The notes beneath the pieces were generated by a model. The model was not told where the DNA came from. It was given only the letters and a program-made list of their open reading frames with translations, and ran no database searches. A DNA stretch of 64,000 nt, from contig CP068257.2 of assembly GCA_009914755.4 (NCBI GenBank), positions 33,056,001 to 33,120,000 of the forward strand. Direction: 5' to 3'. This document shows, one piece after another, positions 4,732-62,200 of the stretch; positions within the stretch are counted from its first letter, which is position 1, and each line of letters starts with the position of its first letter. Both the position numbers and the translations under genes were made by a program. This DNA is from the human T2T-CHM13v2.0 reference genome, Homo sapiens.

Positions 4732-5025
4732 GGCTGGGTGAGGTGGCTCACGCCTGTAATCCCAGCACTTTGGGAGGCTGAGGCGGGCAGATCACGAGGT
4801 CAGGAGATTGAGACCATCCTGGCCAACACGGTGCAACCCCGTCTCTACTAAAAATACAAAAAAAAAAAAAAAAGTCACCCGGGCGTGGTGGCGTGTGCCT
4901 GTAGTCCCAGCTACTCAGGAGGCTGAGGCAGGAGAATGGCGTGAACCCAGGAGGTGGAGCTTGCAGTGAGCCGAGATTGCACTCCAGCCTGGGCAAGAGA
5001 GAGACTCCATCTAAAAAAAAAAAAA
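4732..5025 (+). mobile_element. Alu SINE (AluS/Y-like), full length with TSD gaaaaagtttac
   Basis: ggctgggtgaggtggctcacgcctgtaatcccagcactttgggaggctgagg ... poly-A tail. The direct repeat aaaagtttac flanks both ends. Confidence 0.95.
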
Positions 5026-10470: not shown

Positions 10471-12702
10471 AGGGAGAACTGAAATGCTCAAATATCAAAG
10501 GTTGTTTGAAAAAATAATTTTGAAGCTTTTGTGGAAAACACAGACTCTGTTGACATATTCCAGATTTTTACTAGGTTTGTGGATTTTATCCCTCAACTCA
10601 CTGTTTCTCTTCTTTTAATAGTATATGGCTGTTCACATAAAAATAAGTAGGGAGAAGTAAACGCTGCTTTTTTTTTTTTTGTCCTTCACACTACCAAGTG
10701 CTGTTTTGCACCCAAATGTATATTTTAAACAAATATTTATTGATTACCTGCCAAGTAGCAGACATTGTGCTTGGGGCTGGGGGTGTAACAGTGATTAGAA
10801 CAAACACAGCCCCTGCTTTTCTGGAGAACTTCAGCCTAGACAGTGATCCAGAAAGAAACAACTACTATGCAACATGAGGAAGAGGACCACAGGAGATTGC
10901 TGGGCCGGGTGGGAAGAGCAGGCTGGCAGGCTGGGCAGTGACAACAGTCTAGGGGAAAGTTAGATTCTAGATCTCTGACCATGAGGCCTGGCCCCCTGCC
11001 ATGTGCCTGTCTATTTGGAAGATGAATCAATTTATCCATCTATCTGCACAACAGATGGATGTATGAATGACAGCCATGTAGAAATAGCTACTCTGTCAGG
11101 TGGTCCATTTTTAATTATACATTTTGTAGAATGTAATTTTATATTACTATCCATAAGTTCTTTTCACCTAAGCCAGTGATGTCTCAGCAGCCAGATTGTG
11201 TTTACAGACCTTGACTTTGAGCACAGTAACTTTACAACTATTAAAGCTCTATGGCACATGAAAGATTATTTCCTTCTTCCTCTTTCTACGGTAGGAGACT
11301 ACAGTGAGGAGTGTAAGTGAAGGCCAAAATGAGGGAGAGGAAAATAAATCACTGTAATTATAGTACACAAGCAAGGAGGACCTGGAAATGTGACCTAGGT
11401 CATTCCATGTCCCCTTTCTGCAGTTATTTCTTTAAGGAGCAGCCCTTATTTTTACAAAGGAGAGGCAACACAGTGCTGATGAAGTGGCTGTCAGTTTCAG
11501 GGCACCCTTTTGGTTTCCAGGTGTGAGAGTTCAAAACTGTCCTGGAGAAGCCAGGCAGTTGGGTCCTTTTCCATAAACCTAGATTTTGCCTTCCAGCTAG
11601 GGAGACTCTCCACTGGAGAGGGTACCTGGCTACTGAGAGAGAAGAAAGCCTGGACCCATTGTTCTCAAGGCTTTATGCTTTTATTTTCCTAGCTTTGGTG
11701 GGGTGGCAGGGTGGGGGGTGGTGTGTAGGATGCTGCAGTCCAGTAGGAAGAAGCTGATATGCACTCCAGCAATCCCCCAAGCGGTGACCCTGGTCCTCCT
11801 CTAGCCACCTGGGGACATGGGGATGATGAATCAAAGCAGAGATGAACAGAGGACACTGTTTTATTCCCTGGCTGGAACACACAGTGATATTCTGATGGGG
11901 TCCTTAGGGTGAAGGCCATATGGCCTGTCCAAGACGTCGGCACATCACAGCCATCATCTGCTTTGAAGGCCGCACAAACTAAAGGTGTTATTGGTCTGGA
12001 GATCCAGTGATACTCTTTCTCCCTAAATAAGAAAAATCAACACTTTTTTGGTGCCTTTGGTGTGAGAGCCTTGGAGGTGAGTTCAAAGAACCTTGGAAAG
12101 ACTTAACTCTCTCCCCCAGCTTTGTTCTCTTTGTTTTAACTCCGGGTTGGATGTCTTCAACTCTCTTCCCATAAATGATCAAACTGGATGAAGTTTTAGG
12201 TTGCACTCGGCGGCTTCTCTGTGTCATGTAACTCTCCAAACAGAGAATCCAGTGCTTAAAGAAACACAGAGCTATTAACACATCAGACATGGAGGGGGAC
12301 ATTTTTTTGTTAGCTGCCCTTTTTACTAATATATTATAATGCTTTGAATCATAAATAACAGCAATAAAGCAAGAATGTTCTGTCACTCTCCAGGTATTGA
12401 GGCTCTGGCTAAGGGAAGTCCTGCACATATGTAGCTCCACCCATGGCTGAGTACAAAACAACAACTCCATTGCTTTTAGACACTACTAAGGTTTTCTTAA
12501 CCCATTTATGCCTAGTATTCCATTATTGGACCGCTAAGCTTGTGGAAGTTATTTATATCCTACTGCTCAATGTCATCACCAAGGTCTGCTTTTTCACACA
12601 AAAAATTTGCAACCTCAGGCATAAATGGGTTAAGCCAGTTCAACTTAGTAAATAACTAAAATGCTCAAAGCATTTATTAATATGATTAAGAACATATGCT
12701 TT

Positions 12703-13012
12703 GGCCGGGCACGGTGGCTCACACCTGTAATCCCAGCACTTTGGGAGGCTGAGGTGGGCAGATCACGAGGTCAGGAGTTCAAGACCAGCCTGGCTAACAT
12801 GGTGAAACCCTGTCTCTACTAAAAATACAAAGTTAGCAGGGCATGGTGGCACTCGCCTGTAGTCTCAGCTACTTGGGTGGCTGAGGCAGAAGAATCACTT
12901 GAACTCAAGAGGCAGAGGTTGCTGTGAGCTGAGATCACGCCACTGCGCTCCAGCCTGGGTGACAGAGTGAGACTCTGTGTCAAACAAAACAAAACAAAAA
13001 CCCAAAACCAAA
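12703..13012 (+). mobile_element. Alu SINE (AluS-like) with TSD aacatatgctttg
   Basis: ggccgggcacggtggctcacacctgtaatcccagcactttgggaggctgaggtgggcagatcacgaggtcaggagttcaagaccagcctggctaacatggtgaaaccc ... A-rich tail. Flanking direct repeat. Confidence 0.95.
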
Positions 13013-21108: not shown

Positions 21109-24100
21109 AAATCTGGTTGTTTAAAACTGTGTGGCACCTCCTCCTTTGCTCTCTTCCTCCTTCTCCAGCCATGTAGGATGTGCCTGCTTCCCCTTCACCT
21201 TCTGCCATGATTGTAAGTTTCCTGAGGCCTCCCCAGCCATGCTTCCTGTACAGCCTGCAGAGCCATGAGCCAATTAAACATCTTTTCTTTATAAATTACC
21301 CCATCTCAGGTAGTTCTGTGTAGCAATGTGAGAATGGACTAATACACCTTGGTTGTTAGAGGTTTGGTGCAGGGATTCTCACTTTTTCTCCATGGCATCC
21401 ATGGCCATCATGCAAGTCTTTGGAAAATGAGCAGAGTGGCTCTATGCAGGAAGTTTCTGAAATAGGCTAAGTACTACCTGCTTCAGGGTTTCCTCCCTCT
21501 GCAAGTTGATGAGTAGTTGACCTGCTGAACTGTGCTGGGGAAAAGTTGAGGATTCCCATGTGGAAATTCAGCTGTATTCATTTTCTATCATTGCCATAAC
21601 AAATTACACCACAAGCTTGGTGGCTTTGAATAACTCCAATTTATTAACTCACAGTTCTGTTGATCAGAAACTTGACATGGGTCTCACTGAACTAAAATCA
21701 AGGCACTAGCAGGGCTGCATTTCTTTCTGGAGGCTCTAGGAGATAATCCAGGTCCTCACCTCCCCAGCTTCTAGAGGCTGCTTGCATGTCTTGGCTCATG
21801 GCCCCATCCTCCGTCTTTACTCCAGCCATATTTCATTTCTCCGACCCTTCTTCCCTAATCAAACCTGTCCTGACCACAGCTGGGAAAGGTTCTCATTTTC
21901 AAGCGCTCATGTGATGAGATTGGGTTTGCCTAATAATCCAGGATAATCTCCCCATGTCAAAATCCATAACCTTGATATCATTTGCAAAGTCATTTTTGCC
22001 ATGCAAGGTAATGCATTCACAGATGCTGTGAACTAGTACATGGACATCTTTGAGAGGTCATTATTCTTCCTACTGCACGAGTAAATGCCCCAGAGCTTGT
22101 TCTCTCACATTCTGTCATGGTCATTCCAGGCCATGGCCAGAGAGAGTGTGGTCAAGGGTTGACCTATTTGGAAAGTCAGTTTGTGGTTATTTGCTTGGCT
22201 GTGTTGGGGATTGCCCTATTGACCCTAACCAGTGTCTTCTCAGACTCTGAAATGAGAAAAGCAAGTCTGAAAAGTCCCTTTCCTACATGAGGAAGTGGCC
22301 TTACTTGGTGTGCTATGCTCTCTGGGTGCTTTTATTGAAAGCTATTCATAGCCAAGGCAGACATTGGTTTTACCTGCCTTAAAAAATTCCAGACCCAAAT
22401 TCTTTTGGCTAAACGACATGAAATGTGCTACTTGGGGCCATGATGGCCTGGATTAAAGCAGATTCGATGAGATTTTCCAAGGAGATCCATGGCCCTGCCT
22501 GCCTTGTTGGAAGAAAGGGTGGAATTGTTTGCCCAGATGCAGGCTTTGCAGGACTTCCTGGTTTCTGCATGTGGATGTCTGCCCCACTAGGTTGTCTAAG
22601 GGCATGGGAATGGAGGATGAGGCCTGTTGTTAATAAGGCAGAAGGACATTTTGCACTCTAGGTGTTGGTGTGGGGGAATGCAACATCAAACCCATTGTCA
22701 TCTGGAGTTGTAGCAAGGGTTTCCTACAGAGGGGACAGAATATGCACACATGACTAGAGACCCCCCCCATCCCTGGCCTACCTGGCCACCAAAGTTGTCC
22801 ACCAGGGCTGCCGAATGTTTTCTCTCCAATGCCCCAAGCACACAGGGCATGCATGTTTTACAGCCTCAACCCAGCTCCATTTTCTGTCCTAACCACTGTT
22901 TGTACTTTGCACTTTCCACCTGCTTCTGATATGTGTTCTCTTATCACCATGGATTCCAAACCTTACAGAGCAGAGCTGGGTAAAACAAACAAACAAACAA
23001 ATAAACAAGCCAACTCCCATCACTCTGAGGAAGGACCCTGCTGGCCCTGGGGTCCCCTCCATTTGTCCAGGGTGGGAATGAGAGAATGGATCCTAGCTGA
23101 CTGCCTGGGTTCAAATCCTGCTTTGTGACCTTGGACAAGTTTCTCTACCTCTCTGTGTCTTGGTTTTCTTAAATGGAGACAGTAGTAGTACCTACACCTG
23201 ATAGGGTTGTTGCTAGGATTAAATCTGAGTTGATACAAGTGCTCAGAACCATGAGTAGTACAGAGCACATGCTCCATATGTGTTAGTTGCTATCATTATC
23301 ACTTTCATCATTACCATTATTATTTTGCAACATAACCATTTTGCTCATCATCACATTTGTAAAAGACAGAACTGGAATCTGCGATCTTCTTAAGGCCTCA
23401 GGTGTATTATTTTGAGAAATGCATGTAATTATGTATCTCCTTTTTAGAATGAGAATTGGGGGCATGTTCCAAGGTGGCATGTATGAATCGATACTGATCT
23501 TTTGATCTCTAAATTCCTGGGACGCGGCACCCGTTCAGGTACACAGGGCACTCTTTTCTCACCAGCTGCTGATGGGTTGGGGATGCCTGCAGGGTCTTCT
23601 GATTGGACTTGGACAGAGATTCTTGCTTTTCTCTTTAATCCAGGGACAGTATAGAGGATCAAAGAGAAATTGCAGCCTTTGTTGAGAGTGATTTAGAGAT
23701 TCAGAAATGAGGAGGGCCTGGTGTCTGGCCCATTTGGGTGGTGCCCTTTGGTCTGGAGTGTCTGTCACAATTCTGGGGTAGGTTTGCCACCTGTGCTACG
23801 CCAGTGATTTTTTTAACTGCATCTCTAGTTGAGCTGAGCAGCAGACTTTTCCAAAGGTGGCCAAAGCCAGGAGGGGAAAGGCCGTCCCTGTATTAGCTGG
23901 TTCTCCACAGACTTGGGGAGTTTGTTAGGCTTGTCTTAAATTCTCATCTCTTCCCTGAACACTGACAGACCTCAGCCCTGTTTATCTGGTCCCTTCCCCT
24001 CCCCTCCCCTTCCCTTCTCTTCTCAGCAGCTGTTATTTCCCTATCTTTGGTCCCACCTCCTCAGCATTCAAAGTGTTAACCATCAAGTCTGATGGATGCA

Positions 24101-25153: not shown

Positions 25154-25805
25154 AGCAGATTATCCAAGGTCCTAAGTGTTGTGTCAGGCATTGTTCTAGG
25201 CGTCGTATGTGTACCATCTCATTTAATTCTTATCCAGCACTAAGAGGTAGGTACTATTATGCTTTCATTGTACATGAAGAAAGACAAGACACTAGAAGGT
25301 CAGGTGACTTGCCAGTGGTCACACTGCCTGGGAGCACTGTGATTCCAATTTGCATTTTAATAACATTCCAGCAGAATGACCTAAGGAAAATGGCATCTTA
25401 TCAGGGTTAACCTTGTCCAGGATACGGGTTAGGAATTCCAGCCAGAGAGACCCCCCAGGCCCGAGGCTCTGAGACCCGGCAAGAGTGGCTTCAAAAGCAG
25501 AAACGCTGTGCTGGGCAAGAGACTGATGATCAGGTAAAGGGTAGGGAAGAGTCCAGTTTCCATCTTGAGCACCAGGAAAAACAGTGGGGCCATTGAGTGG
25601 AGAGAGGAGAGCGAGAGAGAGAGCGCACTTTATTCTTTGAAGTCTATTTGCATCTTTGGCCAGGTTATTTAGCATCTCTGAAGTTCAGTTTCCTTGTTTA
25701 TAAAATGGGATGAATAATAGGACATGTCTTACACGATTTTAAGAGGATTAAATTCAACAACATCCACAAATGATTTAGAACCTTACCTGAAGTCAGAGTA
25801 GGTAG

Positions 25806-26147
<342 letters not shown>

Positions 26148-28075: not shown

Positions 28076-28639
28076 ACCTTTATTGGGTGCCCAGGGATTC
28101 CAGTGTATCACACACAGATCTTGCATGATGTAGGTGCATGTATCCCTATTTTTTTAAAAAAGGGAGAAACTGAGGCTCAGGGAGAACAACTGAATCGCCC
28201 GAGGCCACACAATTAGTAAGTAGGGGGCCAAGGTTCCAACAGCTCTCCCTGGCTCCAACGCCAGCACCCATTCCCGTCCACCATGTTGCCTTGGAGAAAC
28301 CTGATGTTGCCTGAAAAGGGAAATTTCAACTCCTCAGGCAAATGGATAAACTCATAATTTTTTTTTAATTTACAGAACTATTCAAAATCAAGAAGTCTCA
28401 TCAATTTAAATATTGCATTTTAAGTTATAACCATCAGACTGGGGGCTGGGCACAGAAGGCAGCCTGGCGGACTTGCTGCGGGTGACTCAGGCCCTCTCAC
28501 TTTCTCTCCCACCTCCTCTTCTCCTCCTCCCGTAGATGTGACTCTCGGTGGGTGATCTCTTAGTAGTGAGAATTTGTGAACTTCTGGAAGGGAAAAAGCT
28601 CATGGACTTTGGCCCAGGAAAGAATGAGCAGGGAGGAGC

Positions 28640-33863: not shown

Positions 33864-33973
33864 GCTGGTTATGATGGTGAGAGTATCGGAAATTGCCCGT
33901 TTTCTCAGCGTCTCTTTATGATTCTCTGGCTGAAAGGCGTTATATTTAATGTGACCACAGTGGACCTGAAAAG
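33864..33973 (+). CDS. CLIC6: CLIC6 coding exon 2 (110 nt), encodes [36 protein letters not shown](R); acceptor ttgtag|GCT, donor AAAAG|gtaag
   Basis: Hand translation matches the CLIC N-terminal thioredoxin-fold motif ([16 protein letters not shown]). Phase-0 start, ends after 2 nt of an Arg codon. The 110-nt size is the conserved CLIC exon 2. Confidence 0.85.
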
Positions 33974-34539: not shown

Positions 34540-34665
34540 GAAACCCGCAGACCTGCAGAACCTGGCTCCCGGAACAAACCCTCCTTTCATGACTTTTGAT
34601 GGTGAAGTCAAGACGGATGTGAATAAGATCGAGGAGTTCTTAGAGGAGAAATTAGCTCCCCCGAG
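34540..34665 (+). CDS. CLIC6: CLIC6 coding exon 3 (126 nt), encodes (R)[41 protein letters not shown](R); acceptor cacctag|G, donor CCGAG|gtagg
   Basis: Completes the AG|G Arg codon from exon 2. The peptide is typical of the CLIC family. The 126-nt size matches CLIC exon 3. Canonical AG/GT boundaries. Confidence 0.85.
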
Positions 34666-35295: not shown

Positions 35296-35402
35296 GTATC
35301 CCAAGCTGGGGACCCAACATCCCGAATCTAATTCCGCAGGAAATGACGTGTTTGCCAAATTCTCAGCGTTTATAAAAAACACGAAGAAGGATGCAAATGA
35401 GA
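35296..35402 (+). CDS. CLIC6: CLIC6 coding exon 4 (107 nt), encodes (R)[35 protein letters not shown](I); acceptor tttcaag|G, donor GAGA|gtgagt
   Basis: In-frame continuation. The provided ORF 35231..35446 contains this peptide. 107 nt matches CLIC exon 4. Strong GTGAGT donor. Confidence 0.85.
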
Positions 35403-35952: not shown

Positions 35953-36134
35953 TTCATGAAAAGAACCTGCTGAAGGCCCTGAGGAAGCTGGATAATTACT
36001 TAAATAGCCCTCTGCCTGATGAAATAGATGCCTACAGCACCGAGGATGTCACTGTTTCTGGAAGGAAGTTTCTGGATGGGGACGAGCTGACGCTGGCTGA
36101 CTGCAACCTCTTACCCAAGCTCCATATTATTAAG
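35953..36134 (+). CDS. CLIC6: CLIC6 coding exon 5 (182 nt), encodes (I)[60 protein letters not shown]; acceptor ctgttttag|TT, donor AAG|gttcat
   Basis: The provided ORF 35901..36443 reads through this exon in frame. The peptide contains the CLIC signature [18 protein letters not shown]. 182 nt matches CLIC exon 5. The donor is weak (GTTCAT). Confidence 0.85.
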
Positions 36135-36586
36135 GTTCATCTTCCCTCCCGACACGTGTGCCGAGTACACGAACGGGGCTTTGTTTTATTTTGTTTTTAC
36201 TTGTGTTTGGGCCAGACATTTAAACAGTCTGAAATGTGGAGACTTGGATTAAAAACACTAGTTCTGTTCGGGGCAGCCAAGCCCCAGCTTTCACACACAC
36301 AGAAGATGGGCTTCGGGTGTTCTCAGAAAGTGCCTGGGAACATGGCCCCACCTTCTGCTTCTCTCTCAGCCTTACTCACACAGCCTAAAGACAGGTTATG
36401 TGAAAGCAGCCTGAGGAATTTCGTAGATTATACCTGGTGTTAGCAATTGAGAATTAGAGATGAGGCTCGTAGAATCTGGGGCTATTCAAATGTGAACGCA
36501 GTCTACTGTTGGTGATTGTAGGGCTCCACATGGCCCCTTCTAGGGATGACAGAGGAGTGTTCTATTAGCTTTTAACAGTGACCCTT

Positions 36587-36880
36587 GGCCAGGTGCAGTG
36601 GCTCATGCCTGTAATCCCAGTGATTTGGGAGGCTGAGGTGGGAGGATTGCTTGAGGCCAGGAGTTCAAGACCAGCCAGGGCAACATAGCGAGACCCCATC
36701 TATACAAAAAATAAAAAAAAAAAATTAGCCGGGCATGGTGGTGTGTGCCTGTAGTCCCAGCCACATGGGAGGCTGAAGCTGGAGGATCACTTGAGCCCAG
36801 GAACCTGAGGCTGCAGCAAGTTAAGGAGGTGGCACTGCACTCTGGCCTGGGTGACAGAGTGAGACCCCATCTCTAAAAAC
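36587..36880 (+). mobile_element. Alu SINE (AluS-like) in intron 5
   Basis: ggccaggtgcagtggctcatgcctgtaatcccagtgatttgggaggctgaggtgggaggattgcttgaggccaggagttcaagaccagcc... Confidence 0.9.
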
Positions 36881-37126
36881 AATTAGGTTATTAATTATTT
36901 ATTTATTTTAAAAAAACATTGACCCTCAACATCCAGGAAGCAGCTGGCAGCTTTTGGCTGAGTCTCTGCCATATTTGTTGCCCTGCCTTCCCATATAGTA
37001 GCTGAACATGATTTAAGAGCCATGAGTCATGTATTATTAGGGCTTAAAGACCTGCCAGACCCGTGGTTCTCCAATGTTAGTAGGCATACAAACTGTCTGG
37101 GGAGCTTTTTAGAAATGTGAGTCCCC

Positions 37127-37593
<467 letters not shown>

Positions 37594-37829
37594 CTATCAC
37601 TTATAGAAGTTGAATGTGATTGCTGTGATGAGATTGCTATGTCCTTGGCCCTTAGCAGCTCCAGATACCTCAGGAAGAAGCCCATGCCTGGCTCTGGGGC
37701 ATTTTTATGATTAAAATCCTGCCAGGGCCAGAGCCAGGTGGTTGGTATAAGTGTAGGGGAGATGGGAGAAACACCAGGAAAAATAAGTCATGGACTGTTT
37801 GTTCTAATAACACATTTAGTTAGCATTTA

Positions 37830-38150
<321 letters not shown>

Positions 38151-39423
38151 CATGTTAGCTTCACACAGTCTATGGTGCTGAGGCTCCTGTGGGCTCCCGG
38201 CCACCCCTGGTGACTCTGCTTCATTCTTTTGCCTTTGTCTTCCTGCATTTCTTCTTTCTATCCTCTTCCCCTCTCGGTCCTGGCCCTGTTGCTCCCTTCT
38301 TCTCCCTTCCTTTTTGTGCGTGAGGATACTGACTTGAAATGCAGGCCTTCAGGAGGTTGCTGATCCCTTGGGCAGATGTCTTTTCAATAGCTTTGCCAGT
38401 CCACCAATATCCAAAATTTAATGAAAGCATCTCCACCCCTCAAAACCTGCTAAATTTGGGAGCTGCCTTCTAACAGGATATTTATGTAGCTGTGTTTTGA
38501 TTGAGTCCCTTTTGGTAAATGCTTTTTAGTCCCTACTGTGACCAGCGTAGCATTGCAGAAACACATGAAACTTGAAGAAGAGGGGGAGAAATATCCCAGC
38601 CACAGAGCATTCATGGCCCCTTGTTTAGCTCCCATGAGAAAAGATGATTTTAAATTTCAGTAGAAAGGGTAAGCTTTAGAGTGAGATTGCAGTTCATGGC
38701 TCCACTATAAGACCCAGAAGAAAAATCTGCAAGGCCATTTAGCACTCACAATACCCAACAGCTTAATGATCTTCCAGGATGGAGTACTTCTGAAAGGAAA
38801 TGAGAATCAATCTAAGGGAATTATGGTAAAAGATGAGAGTGTGAAGGGATTTATAATTTATTCCCCTGCCAGAAACCCAGCAAAAACAATATCAAAATAG
38901 GGTATTAGCTTCATCTTTTTTGTAAAACTACAAAGGGATGACAGATCATCGACTTAAAGAGTAGGAAGCTTCTTTCAGTGGGAGGAGCCACAGAACCATT
39001 ACATGTTTCTCCGTATCTTTAGCAAAGTTCAGATTTCTCAAAAGGTAAAGAACACAGTCCTGAAATACCCAACTCAAACTTCTTTGCTTGAGGCCTAGAG
39101 CATGAGATGGGCCAGGAGGGAATCACAGAACTTCCCTATAGAGACCCTTGTTGAGCTGAGATCTCTAGGGAGGCAGAATTGAAGGAGGAGCCACACAGAG
39201 ACGCCATCTTTCTAGGCTGTGACCCAGCACCTAATCCAGAGGAACAGTCTGGAGGGGAGGTAAAGAGGGAGGAAAGGAGGGAAGTGGCATTTTGCATTGT
39301 GACTGCTGAGCAGAGAAAAGAATCTAGGCCCCAGCCAGTCAAGAGAGAGACTAGAATTGCCCAAACTTCGTTTCTAGCCACAGTGGCCTTCTGCCTAATC
39401 TGTGAGCCTCAGAGTGGAGGATG

Positions 39424-39500
39424 CCCTAACCCTAACCCTAACCCTAACCCTAACCCTAACCGTAACTCTAACCCTAACCCCAGCCCTAACCCCAACTCTA
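39424..39500 (-). repeat. Interstitial telomeric-like repeat: degenerate (TTAGGG)n on minus strand = (CCCTAA)~13 on plus, in intron 5
   Basis: ccctaaccctaaccctaaccctaaccctaaccgtaactctaaccctaaccccagccctaaccccaactctaa. Confidence 0.9.
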
Positions 39501-39779
39501 ATGTGTCTCTCTGGGGCAGAGCAGTGGTTGGCGACAAGGTGCTTGGGAGCAAATATTCCAGTTGGTTGGCCACCTGCCCTGTCTCACTCCCTTTGCCCTC
39601 CCCACTGCTTTTAAGCAAATGATAGGTCCAGTAGATCTGCCTCATTCAAAGAAGGCCAATACCAGAGAGAATGCCAGTGAGACCTTGGGGTAGACAGAGT
39701 TGATTGAAAAGAAGGGGGTGGGGGGAGGAATGATAAAGACAAGAAACAAAAACAGAAAAAGACAGATGGGAAATACATA

Positions 39780-41620
<1,841 letters not shown>

Positions 41621-41789
41621 TCACATTGCATCAATGACTGCTGGCCTCCAAAGTCTGCGCAGTAAGCCCCAAAGATCTTCTCATTAACCCCATGCCTGCA
41701 TCATGCAGACATCCTGGGAACCAGTGGGACAGGAGGCAGCAAAGCCCAACTGGCCTTTATGGCTCTGGGTCTCCACTTCAGGTTGAATT

Positions 41790-42200
41790 GTGCCCTCCTC
41801 CCAATTCCTGTGTTGAGATCCTAACCCCCAGTAGCTCAGAATGTGACCTTATTTAAAAATAGGATCTTTGCAGATGTAATTAGTTAAAATAAAGTCATCG
41901 TGGAGTGAGATGGACCTAATCCAGGATGGCCAGTATCGTTGCAAACTGGGGAAATTTGGAAAGAGAGACACAGGGAGAAGGCTCTGTGAAGATGGAGTTA
42001 TGCTTGCACAGCCAAGGCACTGCCAGAAGTGGAGAGAGAGCCTTCCCTAATGCCTTCAGAGGATCCATGACCCTGCTGATACCCTGATCTTGGACTTCTG
42101 GCCCCCAGAACTAGGAATCAGTAAACTTCTGTTGTTCTAAGCCTCCCAGCATGTGTTACTTTATTATGGCAACCCTAGCAAACTGGTACAGTCCCCAGTG
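41790..42200 (+). mobile_element. MLT1-like MaLR LTR in intron 5
   Basis: ...atttaaaaataggatctttgcagatgtaattagttaaaataaagtcatcgtggagtgagatggacctaatcc...cctgatcttggacttctggcccccagaactaggaatcagtaaacttctgttgttctaagcctcccagcatgtgttactttattatggcaaccctagcaaactggtacag matches the MLT1 3' consensus. Confidence 0.75.
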
Positions 42201-42891
42201 TTCTGCACATCTTTGTGACTAATTCCCCAACTGTACCCCTCTTGCTAGAGGAAGTATCTCACACTGCTGTGTTTCTCTTGGTGCTGTCTCTCGACTGCTT
42301 CTTCCTTACACCCACCATCCCCATGAGGGTAGGGATTTGCATCTGCTTTGTTCATGAATCTCTCCTCCGCACAGGCGGGCCCCACGATCAGACGATGCTC
42401 TTAGTGGCAGCATGATGGCATTCAGGAGGATTAACATGCACAGATGTTTGGGACTGGAGAAGTGAGGTTCAGCAAGTAGGAAGAAGAGAGGGCACCATTT
42501 AAACAGCAGATCCACCATGCGTCTTTATTCACATAGCACCAAGTAACACAGTAGCACAACATATGGAAAGAAAGTAACAGGCAACACAAAGAGAAATCCA
42601 CCAGAGTCCAGAGCATACTCGTGCCAGCGGATTCCAAGACCCATCTGTGACAAACTGGTGGGCAGAACTATGTGCAGTCACTGTAGTGAGTACAGGAACT
42701 TCATAGCCCTCCTCACACCCAAGATGGCCCTATGCAAGTCAAGATGCCGTGGTGGGTAGCCCGGATGACTGTGGGATGACATGGGAAACTGGGAAAGAAT
42801 GTATTGCATGCCTCAGAAGAATGGACTGTCTGACTTGGGAGCCTACCTTAGCAAGTTTTCCCTTTACTGATCATTTTCTCTTCATTTTCAG

Positions 42892-43053
42892 ATTGTGGCC
42901 AAGAAGTACAGAGATTTTGAATTTCCTTCTGAAATGACTGGCATCTGGAGATACTTGAATAATGCTTATGCTAGAGATGAGTTCACAAATACGTGTCCAG
43001 CTGATCAAGAGATTGAACACGCATATTCAGATGTTGCAAAAAGAATGAAATGA
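42892..43053 (+). CDS. CLIC6: CLIC6 terminal coding exon 6 (coding part 162 nt incl. stop), encodes [53 protein letters not shown]; acceptor ttcattttcag|ATT
   Basis: Phase-0 exon ending in TGA at 43051-43053. The C-terminal peptide is the conserved CLIC tail ([27 protein letters not shown]). It matches my memory of the CLIC6 C-terminus (...[11 protein letters not shown]). Confidence 0.85.
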
Positions 43054-59257: not shown

Positions 59258-62200
59258 CAAAGCAGCTGGGATTACATGAGAGAACACATAGGAATGCAAG
59301 GTGTAACACACGTGTTCATTATGTTGATGGTTATCTGGTTAGTCACTAACTTTCTAAATTAATTGAGAAACTTTTTTAAGAACCAGAATAGAGATGGGCG
59401 TGACTAAGAGAAAATGTTTAAGACCAAAGAACATCAACCCTCCTTTTAACCCACTAGTTGAGAGCTACACTACTTACCTCCCAAAAATGGCTTTTGTGTC
59501 CAGGAGCTCCAGGCCCTGAAGGATGCTGCTTTGCTTAGGAAGAAAGAGTGGCAGACTTCTCATGGGCTGATGTGCCAAGAATGGCTGAGGTTGGGTCTCA
59601 GTGGATGGCAGGGCTTGCAGGGAAGGCAGCAGACAAAACCCTGGAAATCTGGCTCAACACAAAAGTTAAGAATGGGTCTTACATGAAATACATTGGGTGT
59701 CAGTGTCAAGAATGCCAAGGCCCTAATTTTTACATTATCGTCTCCTAAAGACAACCATGGGGGCTGGCTTGTCATCTCTGTATGTCAATATTCCATATTT
59801 GCCCTTTCCTTTTGAGGATATGGAACCAGTCCTGGTAATTCTCCCCACTTGAGTATGTCTGAGGACGGATACCTCTTCATATACTCAGTCATGGGTGAAG
59901 ATTACATTCTTGAGTGAAACGCATCCTTGGAGATGCCAAAGAGAAAAACAAAGGTACAATTTTTTGATCTATTCTAGAGACAGGAGAAGGACCCGTTTTC
60001 TATATCTGGTCCCAGGATCATCTCTCTTGGGGCATTGGCCATGGAGCCAACACTGGGTTCTGTGGAGCCCGCAACTTTAGCTTCCTAAAAAACTCCTTCA
60101 GGACTTGCTGCACAGGGACAGCATCTCAACTTAGATCAGGCTCTGAGTCCATACTAGAATCTGGTCTGGCCTCCTTCAAGGGGATCTCCTGCCCCTGTGA
60201 GTTTCCTGAGTCCTGGCCTCAGTTTTCTCCTCTTTTACTGAGCTCTTTCCTGGCCCATCACTTGGGGCTGATCTCTGTGAGTTCAAGATTTGAAAAGTGG
60301 TTGCTGTTCTGACTGGTGCCTTTGCTGCCTAAGATTTCATGAAGATGATAGCACTGCAGATGACACAAGGAAGGGTACTTTAGACCTTTTCTGCTCAGAT
60401 AACTTTGGAGATAAAGGCAACATTAGCAATTATACAAGACAAATTTCAGCTGAAGAAGCCCAGAGAGCTTAAATTACTTGCCCTAGGTCCCTTGGCCACA
60501 TACAGCAATGCTGGAACTAGTATTCAAACCTTGTGATTCATAGTTGACAACAATCCATGCGTGGTTGGGGTTCTCGAAATGTAGTCCTTGGACCAGCAGC
60601 ATCATATCATCTGGGAAAGCATTAGAAATGCAAATTATCAAGCCCCATCCAGACCTACTGAGTCAGAAGCTCTGCAATCTCTGCTTTAACCAGCCCTCTA
60701 GGGAATTCAAATACTTGCTACGGTTTGAGAAACAGTGTTCTGTGCCGTGCTAAATTAAACCTTTTGTGGGACAGTTCAGTATTTTTCATCATTTGTAGAA
60801 GAGTTGAGTGCTTACCAATGATCTCTATCACACTTGATTCTTTTATTCATTTCTACACTTAATCTTGAATGCCCATTCCCATATTAGGCACCATATGGAT
60901 CAGAAGGACATATTGAACAAAGATCCTTCCTTCAAGGAGCTCATAGGAGTCACAACATAGACCAAGGAGGCTTTGATACTGAGAAGTAAGGCAAAATATG
61001 ACGGAATTTTGGAATGATGCAGACACCACGGGCGATATGAGTTTGCTAATGCTTTGGGCTATAGAGATGAGGTTGGGAATATCAATAGGAGAAGAGAATT
61101 AGCAACCAGGTGGTAGAAATGGGCCTAGTGAGTTGTAGAAAGAATAAGGAGATTGATCAGGTTGGAGGAGAGGCCTTGTGCTCTCTTAGGAGATTTATGA
61201 GAAGTTATGAGACTGAATTTCTCCCTAAATTATGAGGACCCCTAAGGTACTTGCCTCAGTGACTGAAGAGAATGGGTGGTTGGCTGTAGATCCACCATTC
61301 GGTGATTGATTCTGGAAGCATCTGTCTGGTAGGGAGGGCGAGAAGAACTATTTTCAGACTTTACTCTGGTACAAGCCTCAAGCAATTTGTCATGACTCAG
61401 GTGGTTGGGAAACAAGTGTGCTCTCAGGACAGCTTGACATGTCACTCAGCAGCCTCCTGGGGCCAAGCTGTTCTTTTAAAGGAAGAGTTTTGTGTTGACT
61501 CTGAACTTGGAAGAATCCAAAAACAGCAAGTGACAACAGAAGGTTGAGTCATGAGTGCATACCGCATCCAGGCCAGGCTTTGCTTCCAAGCACGAAGTAG
61601 ACCATGGCGTTGGGTTGACGTTTTCACATTGTAACCGTAAATTCTCTGTGACCCATTTCCACTGCCTGTATCATTTTATAGACCTGTATAGTTGCATGGA
61701 AATTAAATTGGTATTCATTATAAGGTGCCACCAGATGCCCAAAGGCCTTCTAGATTGTCCAAGAAAAGCATCTATCGAGCATCCAACTCCAGCATATTTT
61801 ATTATGTTTAAATTTCTGAAACATAAGCACTTGTGATATATGTGACAAATATAGTTATCAGCATTTTTTCTTAATCAGGAAACTTTGTTTTCAACCATGC
61901 TGGATAAGAGAGAACTTACTGCAGTTACAACTATGCATTATTTTTGAAATAATCCCAGCTAGCATTGATTTACTGTGGTCACAGGCCCTCTATGTCTGCT
62001 TCAAATTCATTCTCTGTGTCATGCCCACAATTATCCTCCTACGAAGGAGGCATTATTGTTGTCTCCACCTTACAGGTGAGTAAACTGAATCACAGAGAGG
62101 ACAAATAATATCTTCGAAGCCATGCAGCAAATAAGCGGTGAAGACTGGATCATACATACACATGTGCACACACACACACCATTCAGAATCATGGTGGAAG

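What the first reader, a model, noticed from the sequence alone, without database searches (positions are those of the whole stretch)
39424..39500. Interstitial telomeric sequence: degenerate (TTAGGG)13 in CLIC6 intron 5
Thirteen tandem hexamers of telomeric type appear deep inside a gene. Six are perfect and the rest are single-base variants (ccgtaa, ctctaa, ccccag, ccccaa). The array is not attached to a poly-A or a recognisable repeat, and the orientation is TTAGGG on the minus strand. Short interstitial telomeric sequences are thought to arise by telomerase-mediated repair of double-strand breaks. They can bind TRF1/TRF2, behave as fragile or recombinogenic sites, and are informative for dating because they are often lineage-specific.
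Basis: partly seen in the sequence, partly recalled or inferred. Interest (0 to 1): 0.5.

Follow-up and report, generated by a model that had tools for sequence, protein, structure and literature searches.

The report
Ancient telomere-like repeat in CLIC6 intron
A 78-base stretch of telomere-type repeats sits in the middle of the last intron of the CLIC6 gene; it is real, but it is an already catalogued, shelterin-bound interstitial telomeric sequence that is about 90 million years old rather than a recent lineage-specific insertion.

Summary
The array is real: 13 CCCTAA-type hexamers at 39424-39501 (+), with TTAGGG on the minus strand. It is the only telomeric array in the window. It lies mid-way in intron 5 (36135-42891) of a gene whose exons 2-6 encode CLIC6. 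Small corrections: 8 units are perfect, not 6; CCCCAG differs at two bases; the array ends at 39501.

It is not lineage-specific. The array sits at the same junction (GGAGGATG|array|TGTGTC) in macaque, owl monkey, tarsier, lemur, colugo, squirrel and horse. A manatee has 14 unrelated bases there; the sloth locus is uninformative.

Outside catarrhines, each array differs from a perfect repeat about as much as that lineage's flanks have diverged. This fits neutral decay of a once-perfect insertion. The perfect (CCCTAA)6 block in the window is best explained by later slippage expansion.

The locus is already published:
- human ITS chr21:36085146-36085229, 84 bp with 6 mismatches;
- horse orthologue chr26:32420315-32420368, noted as shared for more than 90 My;
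- TRF1/TRF2 and UCHL1 ChIP peak in "CLIC6 intron 5 of 5".

Origin by telomerase-mediated break repair is inferred, not shown. Verdict: already known, low interest.

The parts
39424..39501 (-). Whole interstitial telomeric array: 13 hexamers, with the G-rich TTAGGG strand on the minus strand. The CLIC6 pre-mRNA therefore carries CCCUAA.
   Evidence: It matches the published human ITS entries (84 bp, 6 mismatches) apart from one perfect unit fewer.
39424..39459 (-). Perfect block (CCCTAA)6. This is the length-variable part: 7 units in macaque and at most 2-3 consecutive perfect units in the six non-catarrhine species.
   Evidence: The probability that 36 nt stay unchanged at the flank divergence of 0.146 is 0.003, so the block must have been regenerated by slippage.
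39460..39501 (-). Degenerate block CCGTAA CTCTAA CCCTAA CCCCAG CCCTAA CCCCAA CTCTAA. This is the old part of the array, with variant units shared with other species.
   Evidence: It has 6 mismatches in 42 nt against 6.2 expected from flank divergence. The terminal CTCTAA is shared with macaque and tarsier, CCCCAA with macaque and owl monkey, and CCCCAG with colugo.
39384..39423 (+). Left junction flank ...CTTCTGCCTAATCTGTGAGCCTCAGAGTGGAGGATG. It is present in all nine alignable species, including the array-less manatee.
   Evidence: most conserved 40-nt bin, 0.88 mean identity to the window.
39502..39521 (+). Right junction flank TGTGTCTCTCTGGGGCAGAG, orthologous to manatee GTGTTCTCCTGGGAAAGAG.
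36135..42891 (+). CLIC6 intron 5 (last intron, 6757 nt), which hosts the array near its midpoint.
   Evidence: GT...AG borders; CLIC6 identity. PMC5681776 lists the ChIP peak as 'CLIC6, intron 5 of 5'.
35953..36134 (+). CLIC6 exon 5.
42892..43053 (+). CLIC6 exon 6, coding part through the stop codon.

Best explanation
This is a 'short' interstitial telomeric sequence (ITS). A run of TTAGGG repeats was inserted in one step into unique intronic DNA of CLIC6, at or shortly before the common ancestor of boreoeutherian mammals (primates, colugos, rodents, horses). By analogy with other ITS loci, the insertion most likely occurred when telomerase extended a broken DNA end that was then rejoined. Since then the array has behaved as neutral DNA. 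It has picked up point mutations at the same rate as its flanks, and it has gained and lost units by replication slippage. One result is a re-expansion of perfect units in Old World monkeys and apes, which gives the (CCCTAA)6 block seen here. According to published ChIP data, the array binds TRF1, TRF2 and UCHL1 in human cells. There is no sign that its sequence is kept by selection. Shown here: the array, its position, its presence at the same junction in eight boreoeutherian species, its absence in manatee, and the match between array decay and flank divergence. Taken from the literature: protein binding and catalogue entries. Inferred: the break-repair and telomerase origin, and the exact branch of insertion.
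For: Anatomy and significance. Host gene and intron.

Orthologous arrays at the identical junction GGAGGATG|array|TGTGTC..CTGGGGCAGAG:
- macaque L001, 54 bp
- owl monkey L002, 43 bp
- tarsier L003, 71 bp
- lemur L004, 30 bp
- colugo L005, 160 bp
- squirrel L006, 33 bp
- horse L007, 54 bp

Manatee L008 has 14 non-telomeric bases between the same flanks. Their edit distance to a telomeric repeat equals that of shuffled sequence.

Neutral clock, as array edit distance per nt versus lineage flank divergence:
- owl monkey 0.186 vs 0.170
- tarsier 0.113 vs 0.132
- lemur 0.133 vs 0.145
- colugo 0.144 vs 0.147
- squirrel 0.303 vs 0.275
- horse 0.148 vs 0.170
- degenerate half of the window array: 6 mismatches observed, 6.2 expected

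The flanks are not a transposon and not repeated. No telomerase-RNA fragment is present.

Literature:
- Human ITS #207 is chr21:36085146-36085229, 84 bp with 6 mismatches. Horse ITS #126 is chr26:32420315-32420368, 54 bp with 8 mismatches, which is exactly the length and mismatch count of my horse array. The paper states it has a human orthologue shared for more than 90 My (PMC7215372).
- Human/chimpanzee entry #66 is HSA21q22, 84(6)/66(5) (PMC2246262).
- A UCHL1 peak at chr21:36,085,122-36,085,247 in 'CLIC6 intron 5 of 5' was shown aligned with TRF1/TRF2 ChIP tracks. The published primers match the window exactly at 39450 and 39533 (PMC5681776).
- The CLIC6 ITS was used as a TRF1 ChIP positive control (PMC6264879).
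- One-step insertion at breaks, often with small deletions, and microhomology to the telomerase template are documented for other ITS loci (PMC2246262).
Against: - Only one array-less orthologue was obtained, and it is not a clean pre-insertion site. The manatee 14-mer CTGGGAGCAGAGAA resembles the neighbouring right-flank motif CTGGGGCAGAG (11/12, shuffle p about 0.004). It could therefore be a repair patch left after loss of the array.
- The sloth locus has no homology at the site. No marsupial or second afrotherian could be fetched. One gain on the boreoeutherian stem and one loss in the manatee lineage are thus equally parsimonious.
- The clock argument is approximate. Slippage can rejuvenate arrays, and the 'confident majority' sites underestimate divergence.
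- Nothing in the sequence distinguishes telomerase synthesis from capture of a telomeric DNA fragment.
- The 40 nt left of the array are somewhat better conserved than the rest (0.88 vs 0.70-0.79), so weak constraint nearby is not excluded.
Confidence: 0.75

Rival explanations
1. Same kind of element, but older. The array was already present in the placental ancestor (or earlier) and was lost in the manatee lineage. The loss would be a deletion repaired with a short templated patch copied from the adjacent flank.
For: The manatee 14-mer at the array position is a near copy of the right-flank motif 8 nt downstream (11/12, p about 0.004). This is what templated end-joining leaves behind. With one afrotherian and no informative xenarthran, loss and gain are equally parsimonious.
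Against: The deletion would have had to remove the whole array and essentially nothing else on either side. Slippage contraction normally leaves residual units, and none remain in manatee. Array decay matches flank divergence measured from a roughly boreoeutherian consensus. That fits an array still near-perfect at that time, although it cannot separate two nodes only a few million years apart.
Confidence: 0.35
2. The repeats were not synthesised by telomerase at the break. Instead, a pre-existing fragment of telomeric DNA was captured and ligated into a double-strand break by end joining.
For: The original authors proposed this as an alternative for ITS loci in general (PMC2246262). On the G-rich strand the variant units lie at one end and the pure units at the other. 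This superficially recalls the variant-rich proximal part of real telomeres (my own knowledge, not tested).
Against: The variant units are explained by neutral decay: 6 observed against 6.2 expected. They arose after insertion, because horse and primates do not share them. Published genome-wide evidence for in-register microhomology at other loci favours telomerase.
Confidence: 0.2
3. The array is a functional shelterin-binding element, for example a TRF2-dependent regulatory or chromatin-anchoring site for CLIC6 or neighbouring genes. On this view selection has retained it for about 90 My.
For: It is retained as a recognisable array in all eight boreoeutherian lineages sampled. It is bound by TRF1/TRF2/UCHL1 in human cell lines. 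The adjacent 40 nt are the best conserved stretch of the surrounding 800 nt. The authors of PMC7215372 raise the question of function for the six human-horse shared ITSs.
Against: In six lineages the array has decayed as fast as the flanks. Its length ranges from 30 to 160 bp, and perfect runs long enough for strong binding exist only in catarrhines. The flanks are retained equally well, so persistence needs no selection.
Confidence: 0.07
4. An ordinary microsatellite that grew in place by slippage from a chance CCCTAA-like seed, with no insertion event.
For: The array clearly does change length by slippage: 30-160 bp among species, and 78 bp here against 84 bp in the published human entry.
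Against: The only array-less orthologue has no telomere-like seed at the site (edit distance equals shuffles). The oldest inferred state is already a multi-unit array shared by primates, rodents and horse. ITS loci in general are documented to appear in one step.
Confidence: 0.03
5. A relic of an ancestral chromosome fusion, or part of a subtelomeric duplication or satellite.
For: None found.
Against: The array has a single orientation and is only 78 bp long. It is the only telomeric array in 64 kb. It lies inside an intron whose flanks are collinear with the same intron in nine mammals, including one without the array. The flanks are unique in the window.
Confidence: 0.01

Closest known systems
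Short interstitial telomeric sequences (short ITS / s-ITS) as defined by Azzalin, Nergadze, Giulotto and colleagues
   Same: It is a few to a few dozen TTAGGG units in one orientation, at an internal euchromatic site, flanked by unique sequence, with fewer than one mismatch per unit. It is length-polymorphic like a microsatellite. This exact locus is in their catalogues: PMC2246262 supplementary entry #66 and PMC7215372 supplementary entry #207.
   Different: It is much older than the typical entry: it is one of only two horse ITSs whose human orthologue is on their list of 229 well-conserved human ITSs (four more have only degenerate human counterparts). The window's copy has 13 units where the published human entry has 14.
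Shelterin-bound ITSs (TRF1/TRF2 ChIP-seq sites of Simonet et al. 2011; UCHL1 sites of PMC5681776)
   Same: This locus is one of them. The UCHL1 peak in CLIC6 intron 5 was shown aligned with TRF1 and TRF2 ChIP tracks, and the published qPCR primers lie at 39450 and 39533.
   Different: Nothing differs; binding was not testable here. No function of the binding at this locus has been reported in the papers I could read.
TERC-ITS (telomeric repeats co-inserted with a retrotranscribed fragment of telomerase RNA; PMC2246262, PMC8537989)
   Same: Same presumed pathway: telomerase acting at a break.
   Different: No telomerase-RNA-derived flank is present. Both flanks are orthologous to the array-less manatee sequence, and an Rfam scan finds no telomerase RNA match.
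Fusion ITS at human 2q13-q14, and subtelomeric ITSs
   Same: Only the repeat unit.
   Different: It has no head-to-head arrangement, no hundreds of bp of degenerate repeats and no subtelomeric context. It lies in a conserved intron.

Membership tests
Short ITS (Nergadze/Giulotto criteria) | [quoted passage not shown] | tested here: met
   13 units with 6 mismatches, or 0.46 per unit.
Short ITS (Nergadze/Giulotto criteria) | Internal chromosomal site flanked by unique, non-telomeric, non-subtelomeric sequence | tested here: met
   The array is mid-intron 5 of CLIC6. The flanks are unique in the window and are not MIR. They are collinear with orthologous introns.
Short ITS (Nergadze/Giulotto criteria) | Single orientation of the repeats | tested here: met
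   All units read CCCTAA on the + strand.
Short ITS (Nergadze/Giulotto criteria) | Appeared in one step relative to a conserved, array-less orthologous site | tested here: inconclusive
   Manatee lacks the array between conserved flanks but carries 14 other bases there. Sloth is uninformative. No further outgroups were obtainable.
Short ITS (Nergadze/Giulotto criteria) | Nucleotides at the 3' end of the ancestral break in register with the inserted repeats (the signature of telomerase) | tested here: inconclusive
   Manatee has ..GAGAA|GTGT.. where others have ..CTCTAA|TGTGT... The two A's could be in register, but the ancestral state is uncertain.
TERC-ITS | Fragment of telomerase RNA outside the template, co-inserted next to the repeats | tested here: not met
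   No Rfam telomerase RNA match in 38400-40500 at E up to 1. Both flanks pre-exist in manatee.
Fusion ITS | Head-to-head (TTAGGG)n/(CCCTAA)n arrays flanked by degenerate subtelomeric sequence | tested here: not met
   Single orientation, with no TTAGGG runs on the + strand anywhere in the window.
Subtelomeric / heterochromatic ITS | Hundreds of bp to kb of degenerate repeats in a subtelomeric or pericentromeric context | tested here: not met
   78 bp inside a single-copy intron.
Shelterin-bound ITS | TRF1/TRF2 occupancy in chromatin immunoprecipitation | not testable with these tools
   Reported for this locus in PMC5681776 (Fig. 4b legend and binding-site table) and PMC6264879 (S13 Fig).
CLIC6 (host gene) | Spliced exons encode a protein closest to CLIC6 rather than CLIC1-5 | tested here: met
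   6ERY CLIC6 at E 4.9e-149 against CLIC4 at 1.4e-121. The protein is identical over 228 aa to chimpanzee and gorilla CLIC6.

The most novel reading that the evidence does not exclude
The array, or the array together with the well-conserved 40 nt on its left, is a selectively maintained shelterin-docking site that has influenced chromatin, replication or expression around CLIC6 for about 90 million years. On this reading the catarrhine re-expansion to six or seven perfect units strengthened TRF1/TRF2 binding.
Probability: 0.06. Interest if true: 0.55.

Novelty: already known. Interest (0 to 1): 0.15.

Why it matters
It matters little as a discovery. The locus is already in published ITS catalogues, it is a standard positive control for TRF1 ChIP, and its human-horse conservation has been noted.

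The modest added value here is threefold:
- The array is traced through eight boreoeutherian lineages at one identical junction.
- An afrotherian lacks it.
- Its decay tracks the neutral rate of each lineage, while the perfect block bound by shelterin in human cells is a later catarrhine expansion.

This makes the locus a clean worked example that old ITSs are neutral relics renewed by slippage. It also cautions against assuming that a partly perfect ITS is young.

Tried and rejected
- **MIR origin of the flanks.** By eye the left flank (..tgtgagcctcag..) resembled the MIR core. A MIR consensus recalled from memory found 10 MIR copies elsewhere in the window. It gave no hit on the flanks, and local alignment scores equalled shuffles. 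Rejected.
- **Flanks repeated elsewhere in the window.** Only trivial short matches were found.
- **Short CLIC6 isoforms as handles for orthologous DNA.** Marmoset P0003 was not on record. Chimpanzee P0155 and tree shrew P0234 also failed.
- **Exact-pattern scans for the left junction in metagenome contigs and GTDB genome contigs** (hoping for host contamination from further mammals or other human alleles). Both gave 0 hits.
- **Sloth locus.** Homology resumes only about 140 nt to the right of the array. A sensitive local alignment of horse, manatee and colugo flanks against the 2 kb upstream scored like shuffles. Uninformative.
- **Rfam scan for a telomerase-RNA fragment or any structured RNA around the array.** Only sub-threshold chance hits appeared.
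- **Simonet et al. 2011.** The paper could not be read, so TRF1/TRF2 binding is cited second-hand.
- **Mondello et al. 2000 and Nergadze et al. 2004.** These are not held. I therefore could not establish whether the 'unstable 21q22 ITS' in that literature is this locus or one of the other two 21q22 entries.

Full report
**Observation.** Window 39424-39501 on the + strand reads (CCCTAA)6 CCGTAA CTCTAA CCCTAA CCCCAG CCCTAA CCCCAA CTCTAA.
- Tandem Repeats Finder reports period 6, 13.0 copies, 84% matches and score 114.
- The 12-mer CCCTAACCCTAA with at most one mismatch occurs eight times in the 64-kb window, all inside this array. Dinucleotide-preserving shuffles give 0.36 expected, and none of 100 shuffles reaches eight. 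Elsewhere there are only isolated single hexamers.
- So the array is real and is the only one in the window.
Eight units are perfect, not six. CCCCAG differs from the canonical unit at two positions. The array ends at 39501.

**Host gene.** A tblastn with a CLIC1 sequence found five collinear exons on the + strand.
- With canonical AG/GT borders they are 33864-33973, 34540-34665, 35296-35402, 35953-36134 and 42892-43053.
- Spliced, they give a 228-aa open frame ending in a stop. Its best match among solved structures is CLIC6 (6ERY, E 4.9e-149, against 1.4e-121 for CLIC4).
- The large first exon is not in the window.
- The array lies in intron 5 (36135-42891, 6757 nt), 3290 nt from exon 5 and 3391 nt from exon 6. 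The G-rich strand is the template strand of the gene.
- The 228 residues are identical to chimpanzee and gorilla CLIC6 and differ from orangutan, gibbons and monkeys. The window is therefore from an African ape or human, most likely human (see the literature paragraph).

**Surroundings.** There is no poly-A run, Alu or other recognisable repeat at either border. The nearest A-rich tracts are more than 1 kb away. By eye the left flank looked a little like the MIR core, so I tested it. A MIR consensus written from memory recovered ten MIR copies elsewhere in the window. It gave no hit on the flanks, whether the array was present or removed, or in the orthologous manatee, horse or colugo sequence. 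Local alignment scores were the same as for shuffled flanks. The flanks are also unique within the window. An Rfam scan of 38400-40500 found nothing above chance and no telomerase RNA fragment.

**Comparative evidence.** Full-length CLIC6 proteins from a homology search were used to fetch the whole gene from other genomes:
- macaque (L001), owl monkey (L002), tarsier (L003), lemur (L004)
- colugo (L005), grey squirrel (L006), horse (L007)
- Amazonian manatee (L008) and two-toed sloth (L009)

The window aligns with macaque and owl monkey along the gene at about 91% and 88%. A 1-kb query centred on the array aligns straight through the site in macaque, owl monkey, tarsier, lemur, colugo and horse. 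In squirrel the alignment reaches the site from the left and ends inside the array, resuming about 300 nt further on.

In all of those, and in squirrel, a CCCTAA-type array sits at exactly the same junction..GAGTGGAGGATG | array | TGTGTC..CTGGGGCAGAG... Array lengths are:

| Species | Array length (bp) |
|---|---|
| window | 78 |
| macaque | 54 |
| owl monkey | 43 |
| tarsier | 71 |
| lemur | 30 |
| colugo | 160 |
| squirrel | 33 |
| horse | 54 |

By the established mammalian phylogeny, it dates at least to the boreoeutherian ancestor.

**The outgroups.** In manatee the same flanks are present, but between GGAGGATG and GTGTTCTCCTGGGAAAGAG there are only 14 bases, CTGGGAGCAGAGAA. These are no more telomere-like than shuffled sequence.
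- This is the only array-less orthologue I could obtain, and it is not a clean empty site. The 14-mer resembles the right-flank motif CTGGGGCAGAG (11 of 12, shuffle p about 0.004).
- One possibility is that those bases are ancestral and were deleted when the array was inserted. Deletion is the commonest class at other ITS loci (PMC2246262).
- The other is that they are a templated repair patch left when the manatee lineage lost the array.
- In sloth the homologous segment is missing.
I favour the gain, at roughly 0.6 against 0.35. Precise loss of a whole array with no residual unit and no flank loss is unlikely, and the clock result below also points that way.

**Neutral clock.** For 400 nt on each side I estimated how far each lineage has diverged from the majority consensus of the distant lineages. 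I also computed the edit distance of each array to a perfect CCCTAA repeat, per nucleotide.

| Species | Flank divergence | Array edit distance per nt |
|---|---|---|
| window | 0.146 | 0.077 |
| macaque | 0.157 | 0.037 |
| owl monkey | 0.170 | 0.186 |
| tarsier | 0.132 | 0.113 |
| lemur | 0.145 | 0.133 |
| colugo | 0.147 | 0.144 |
| squirrel | 0.275 | 0.303 |
| horse | 0.170 | 0.148 |

- In the six non-catarrhine lineages the array has decayed about as much as the neutral flanks. This is what is expected if a perfect array existed near the boreoeutherian ancestor and has been unconstrained since.
- The two catarrhines are purer only because of a block of six or seven perfect units next to the left junction.
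- In the window, the remaining 42 nt carry 6 mismatches against 6.2 expected. The chance that 36 nt stayed unchanged is 0.003.
- The perfect block must therefore be young. It was regenerated by replication slippage, the known behaviour of ITSs as microsatellites (PMC7215372).
- Variant units at the right-hand end are inherited. The terminal CTCTAA is shared by window, macaque and tarsier. The penultimate CCCCAA is shared with macaque and, as CCCCAC, with owl monkey. CCCCAG is shared with colugo. Horse shares none of these, consistent with a perfect array in the common ancestor.

**Mechanism.**
- *Shown:* a single-orientation telomeric array, inside unique intronic sequence whose flanks pre-exist in an array-less species.
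- *Inferred:* a one-step insertion at a double-strand break. This follows the documented behaviour of short ITSs in primates, rodents and horse: one-step appearance, small deletions or additions at the junction, and non-random microhomology to the telomerase template (PMC2246262; PMC7215372).
- *Likely course of events:* telomerase probably extended the 3' end of the minus strand at the right flank (..CCCCAGAGAGACACA-3'), and the product was then joined to the left flank.
- Manatee ..GAGAA|GTGT.. against ..CTCTAA|TGTGT.. allows up to two bases in register, but this is too uncertain to count as evidence.
- Capture of a telomeric DNA fragment cannot be excluded.
- A fusion relic, a subtelomeric duplication, a satellite and in-place microsatellite birth are each contradicted by the data (see rival explanations).

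**What is already known.** The locus is published.
- PMC7215372 lists human ITS #207 at chr21:36085146-36085229 (84 bp, 6 mismatches) and horse ITS #126 at chr26:32420315-32420368 (54 bp, 8 mismatches). My horse array is 54 bp with 8 mismatches.
- PMC2246262 lists the human/chimpanzee pair as HSA21q22 84(6) and PTR22 66(5).
- PMC5681776 reports a UCHL1 ChIP-seq peak at chr21:36,085,122-36,085,247, annotated 'CLIC6, intron 5 of 5'. It shows this peak aligned with TRF1 and TRF2 ChIP tracks from Simonet et al. 2011. Its CLIC6 primers match the window exactly at 39450 and 39533.
- PMC6264879 uses the CLIC6 repeat as a positive control for TRF1 ChIP.
- The window's array has the same six mismatches as the published human entry but one perfect unit fewer (78 vs 84 bp). 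This fits a length allele or a different assembly.

**Function.** Protein binding in human cells is documented, but I found no reported consequence at this locus. The comparative data give no sign of constraint on the array itself. The only hint is that the 40 nt to its left form the best conserved bin of the surrounding 800 nt (0.88 against 0.70-0.79). I put the probability that the array is a selected functional element at about 0.06.

**Verdict.** The implied recency is wrong. The finding is already known and is of low interest as a discovery.

Noticed in passing
window 39384-39423: The 40 nt immediately left of the array (..CTTCTGCCTAATCTGTGAGCCTCAGAGTGGAGGATG) are the most conserved bin in the 800 nt examined. 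Mean identity to the window across eight species is 0.88, against 0.54-0.79 for the other bins. The stretch is retained in the array-less manatee.
   Followed up: partly
window 39424-39459 versus published human entry chr21:36085146-36085229 (hg19): The window has 13 units (78 bp), whereas two catalogues give 84 bp with the same six mismatches for the human reference. That is one perfect unit fewer, suggesting a length allele or a different assembly.
   Followed up: partly
L008 37499-37512 (manatee): The 14 bases that replace the array, CTGGGAGCAGAGAA, look like a copy of the flank motif CTGGGGCAGAG lying 8 nt downstream in other species. This could be a templated repair patch.
   Followed up: partly
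L008 about 37660-38080 (manatee): A tRNA-like SINE-type insertion (..ggtgcagtggttaagag..ttcgaatcc..) interrupts the manatee intron about 150 nt to the right of the site. It explains why the BLAST alignment breaks there.
   Followed up: no
L001 44515-44568 (macaque) versus window 39460-39483: Macaque lacks the four units CCGTAA CTCTAA CCCTAA CCCCAG that the window shares in part with colugo and tarsier. This is probably a 24-bp contraction in the macaque lineage.
   Followed up: no
L005 39497-39656 (colugo): The colugo array is the longest at 160 bp. It contains several CCCAAA, CCCCAA and CCAAA variants, suggesting lineage-specific expansion of already mutated units.
   Followed up: no
window 35296-35402 / 35953 (exon 4/5 junction), residue 116 of the 228-aa C-terminal fragment: His at this position is shared only with chimpanzee and gorilla CLIC6. 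Orangutan, gibbons, Old and New World monkeys and tarsier all have Tyr.
   Followed up: no
window 23078-23289, 25180-25345, 25651-25821, 28124-28270, 61970-62150 and others: MIR copies detected with a consensus recalled from memory (E 1.6e-24 to 1e-10). Alu-like translated matches also appear near 4754-4801, 12695-12772 and 40965-41039. This is ordinary interspersed repeat content.
   Followed up: no
window 38113-38148 and 41254-41281: An (AAAT)9 run and a 27-nt A-rich run, probably tails of retroposed elements. Neither is adjacent to the telomeric array.
   Followed up: no
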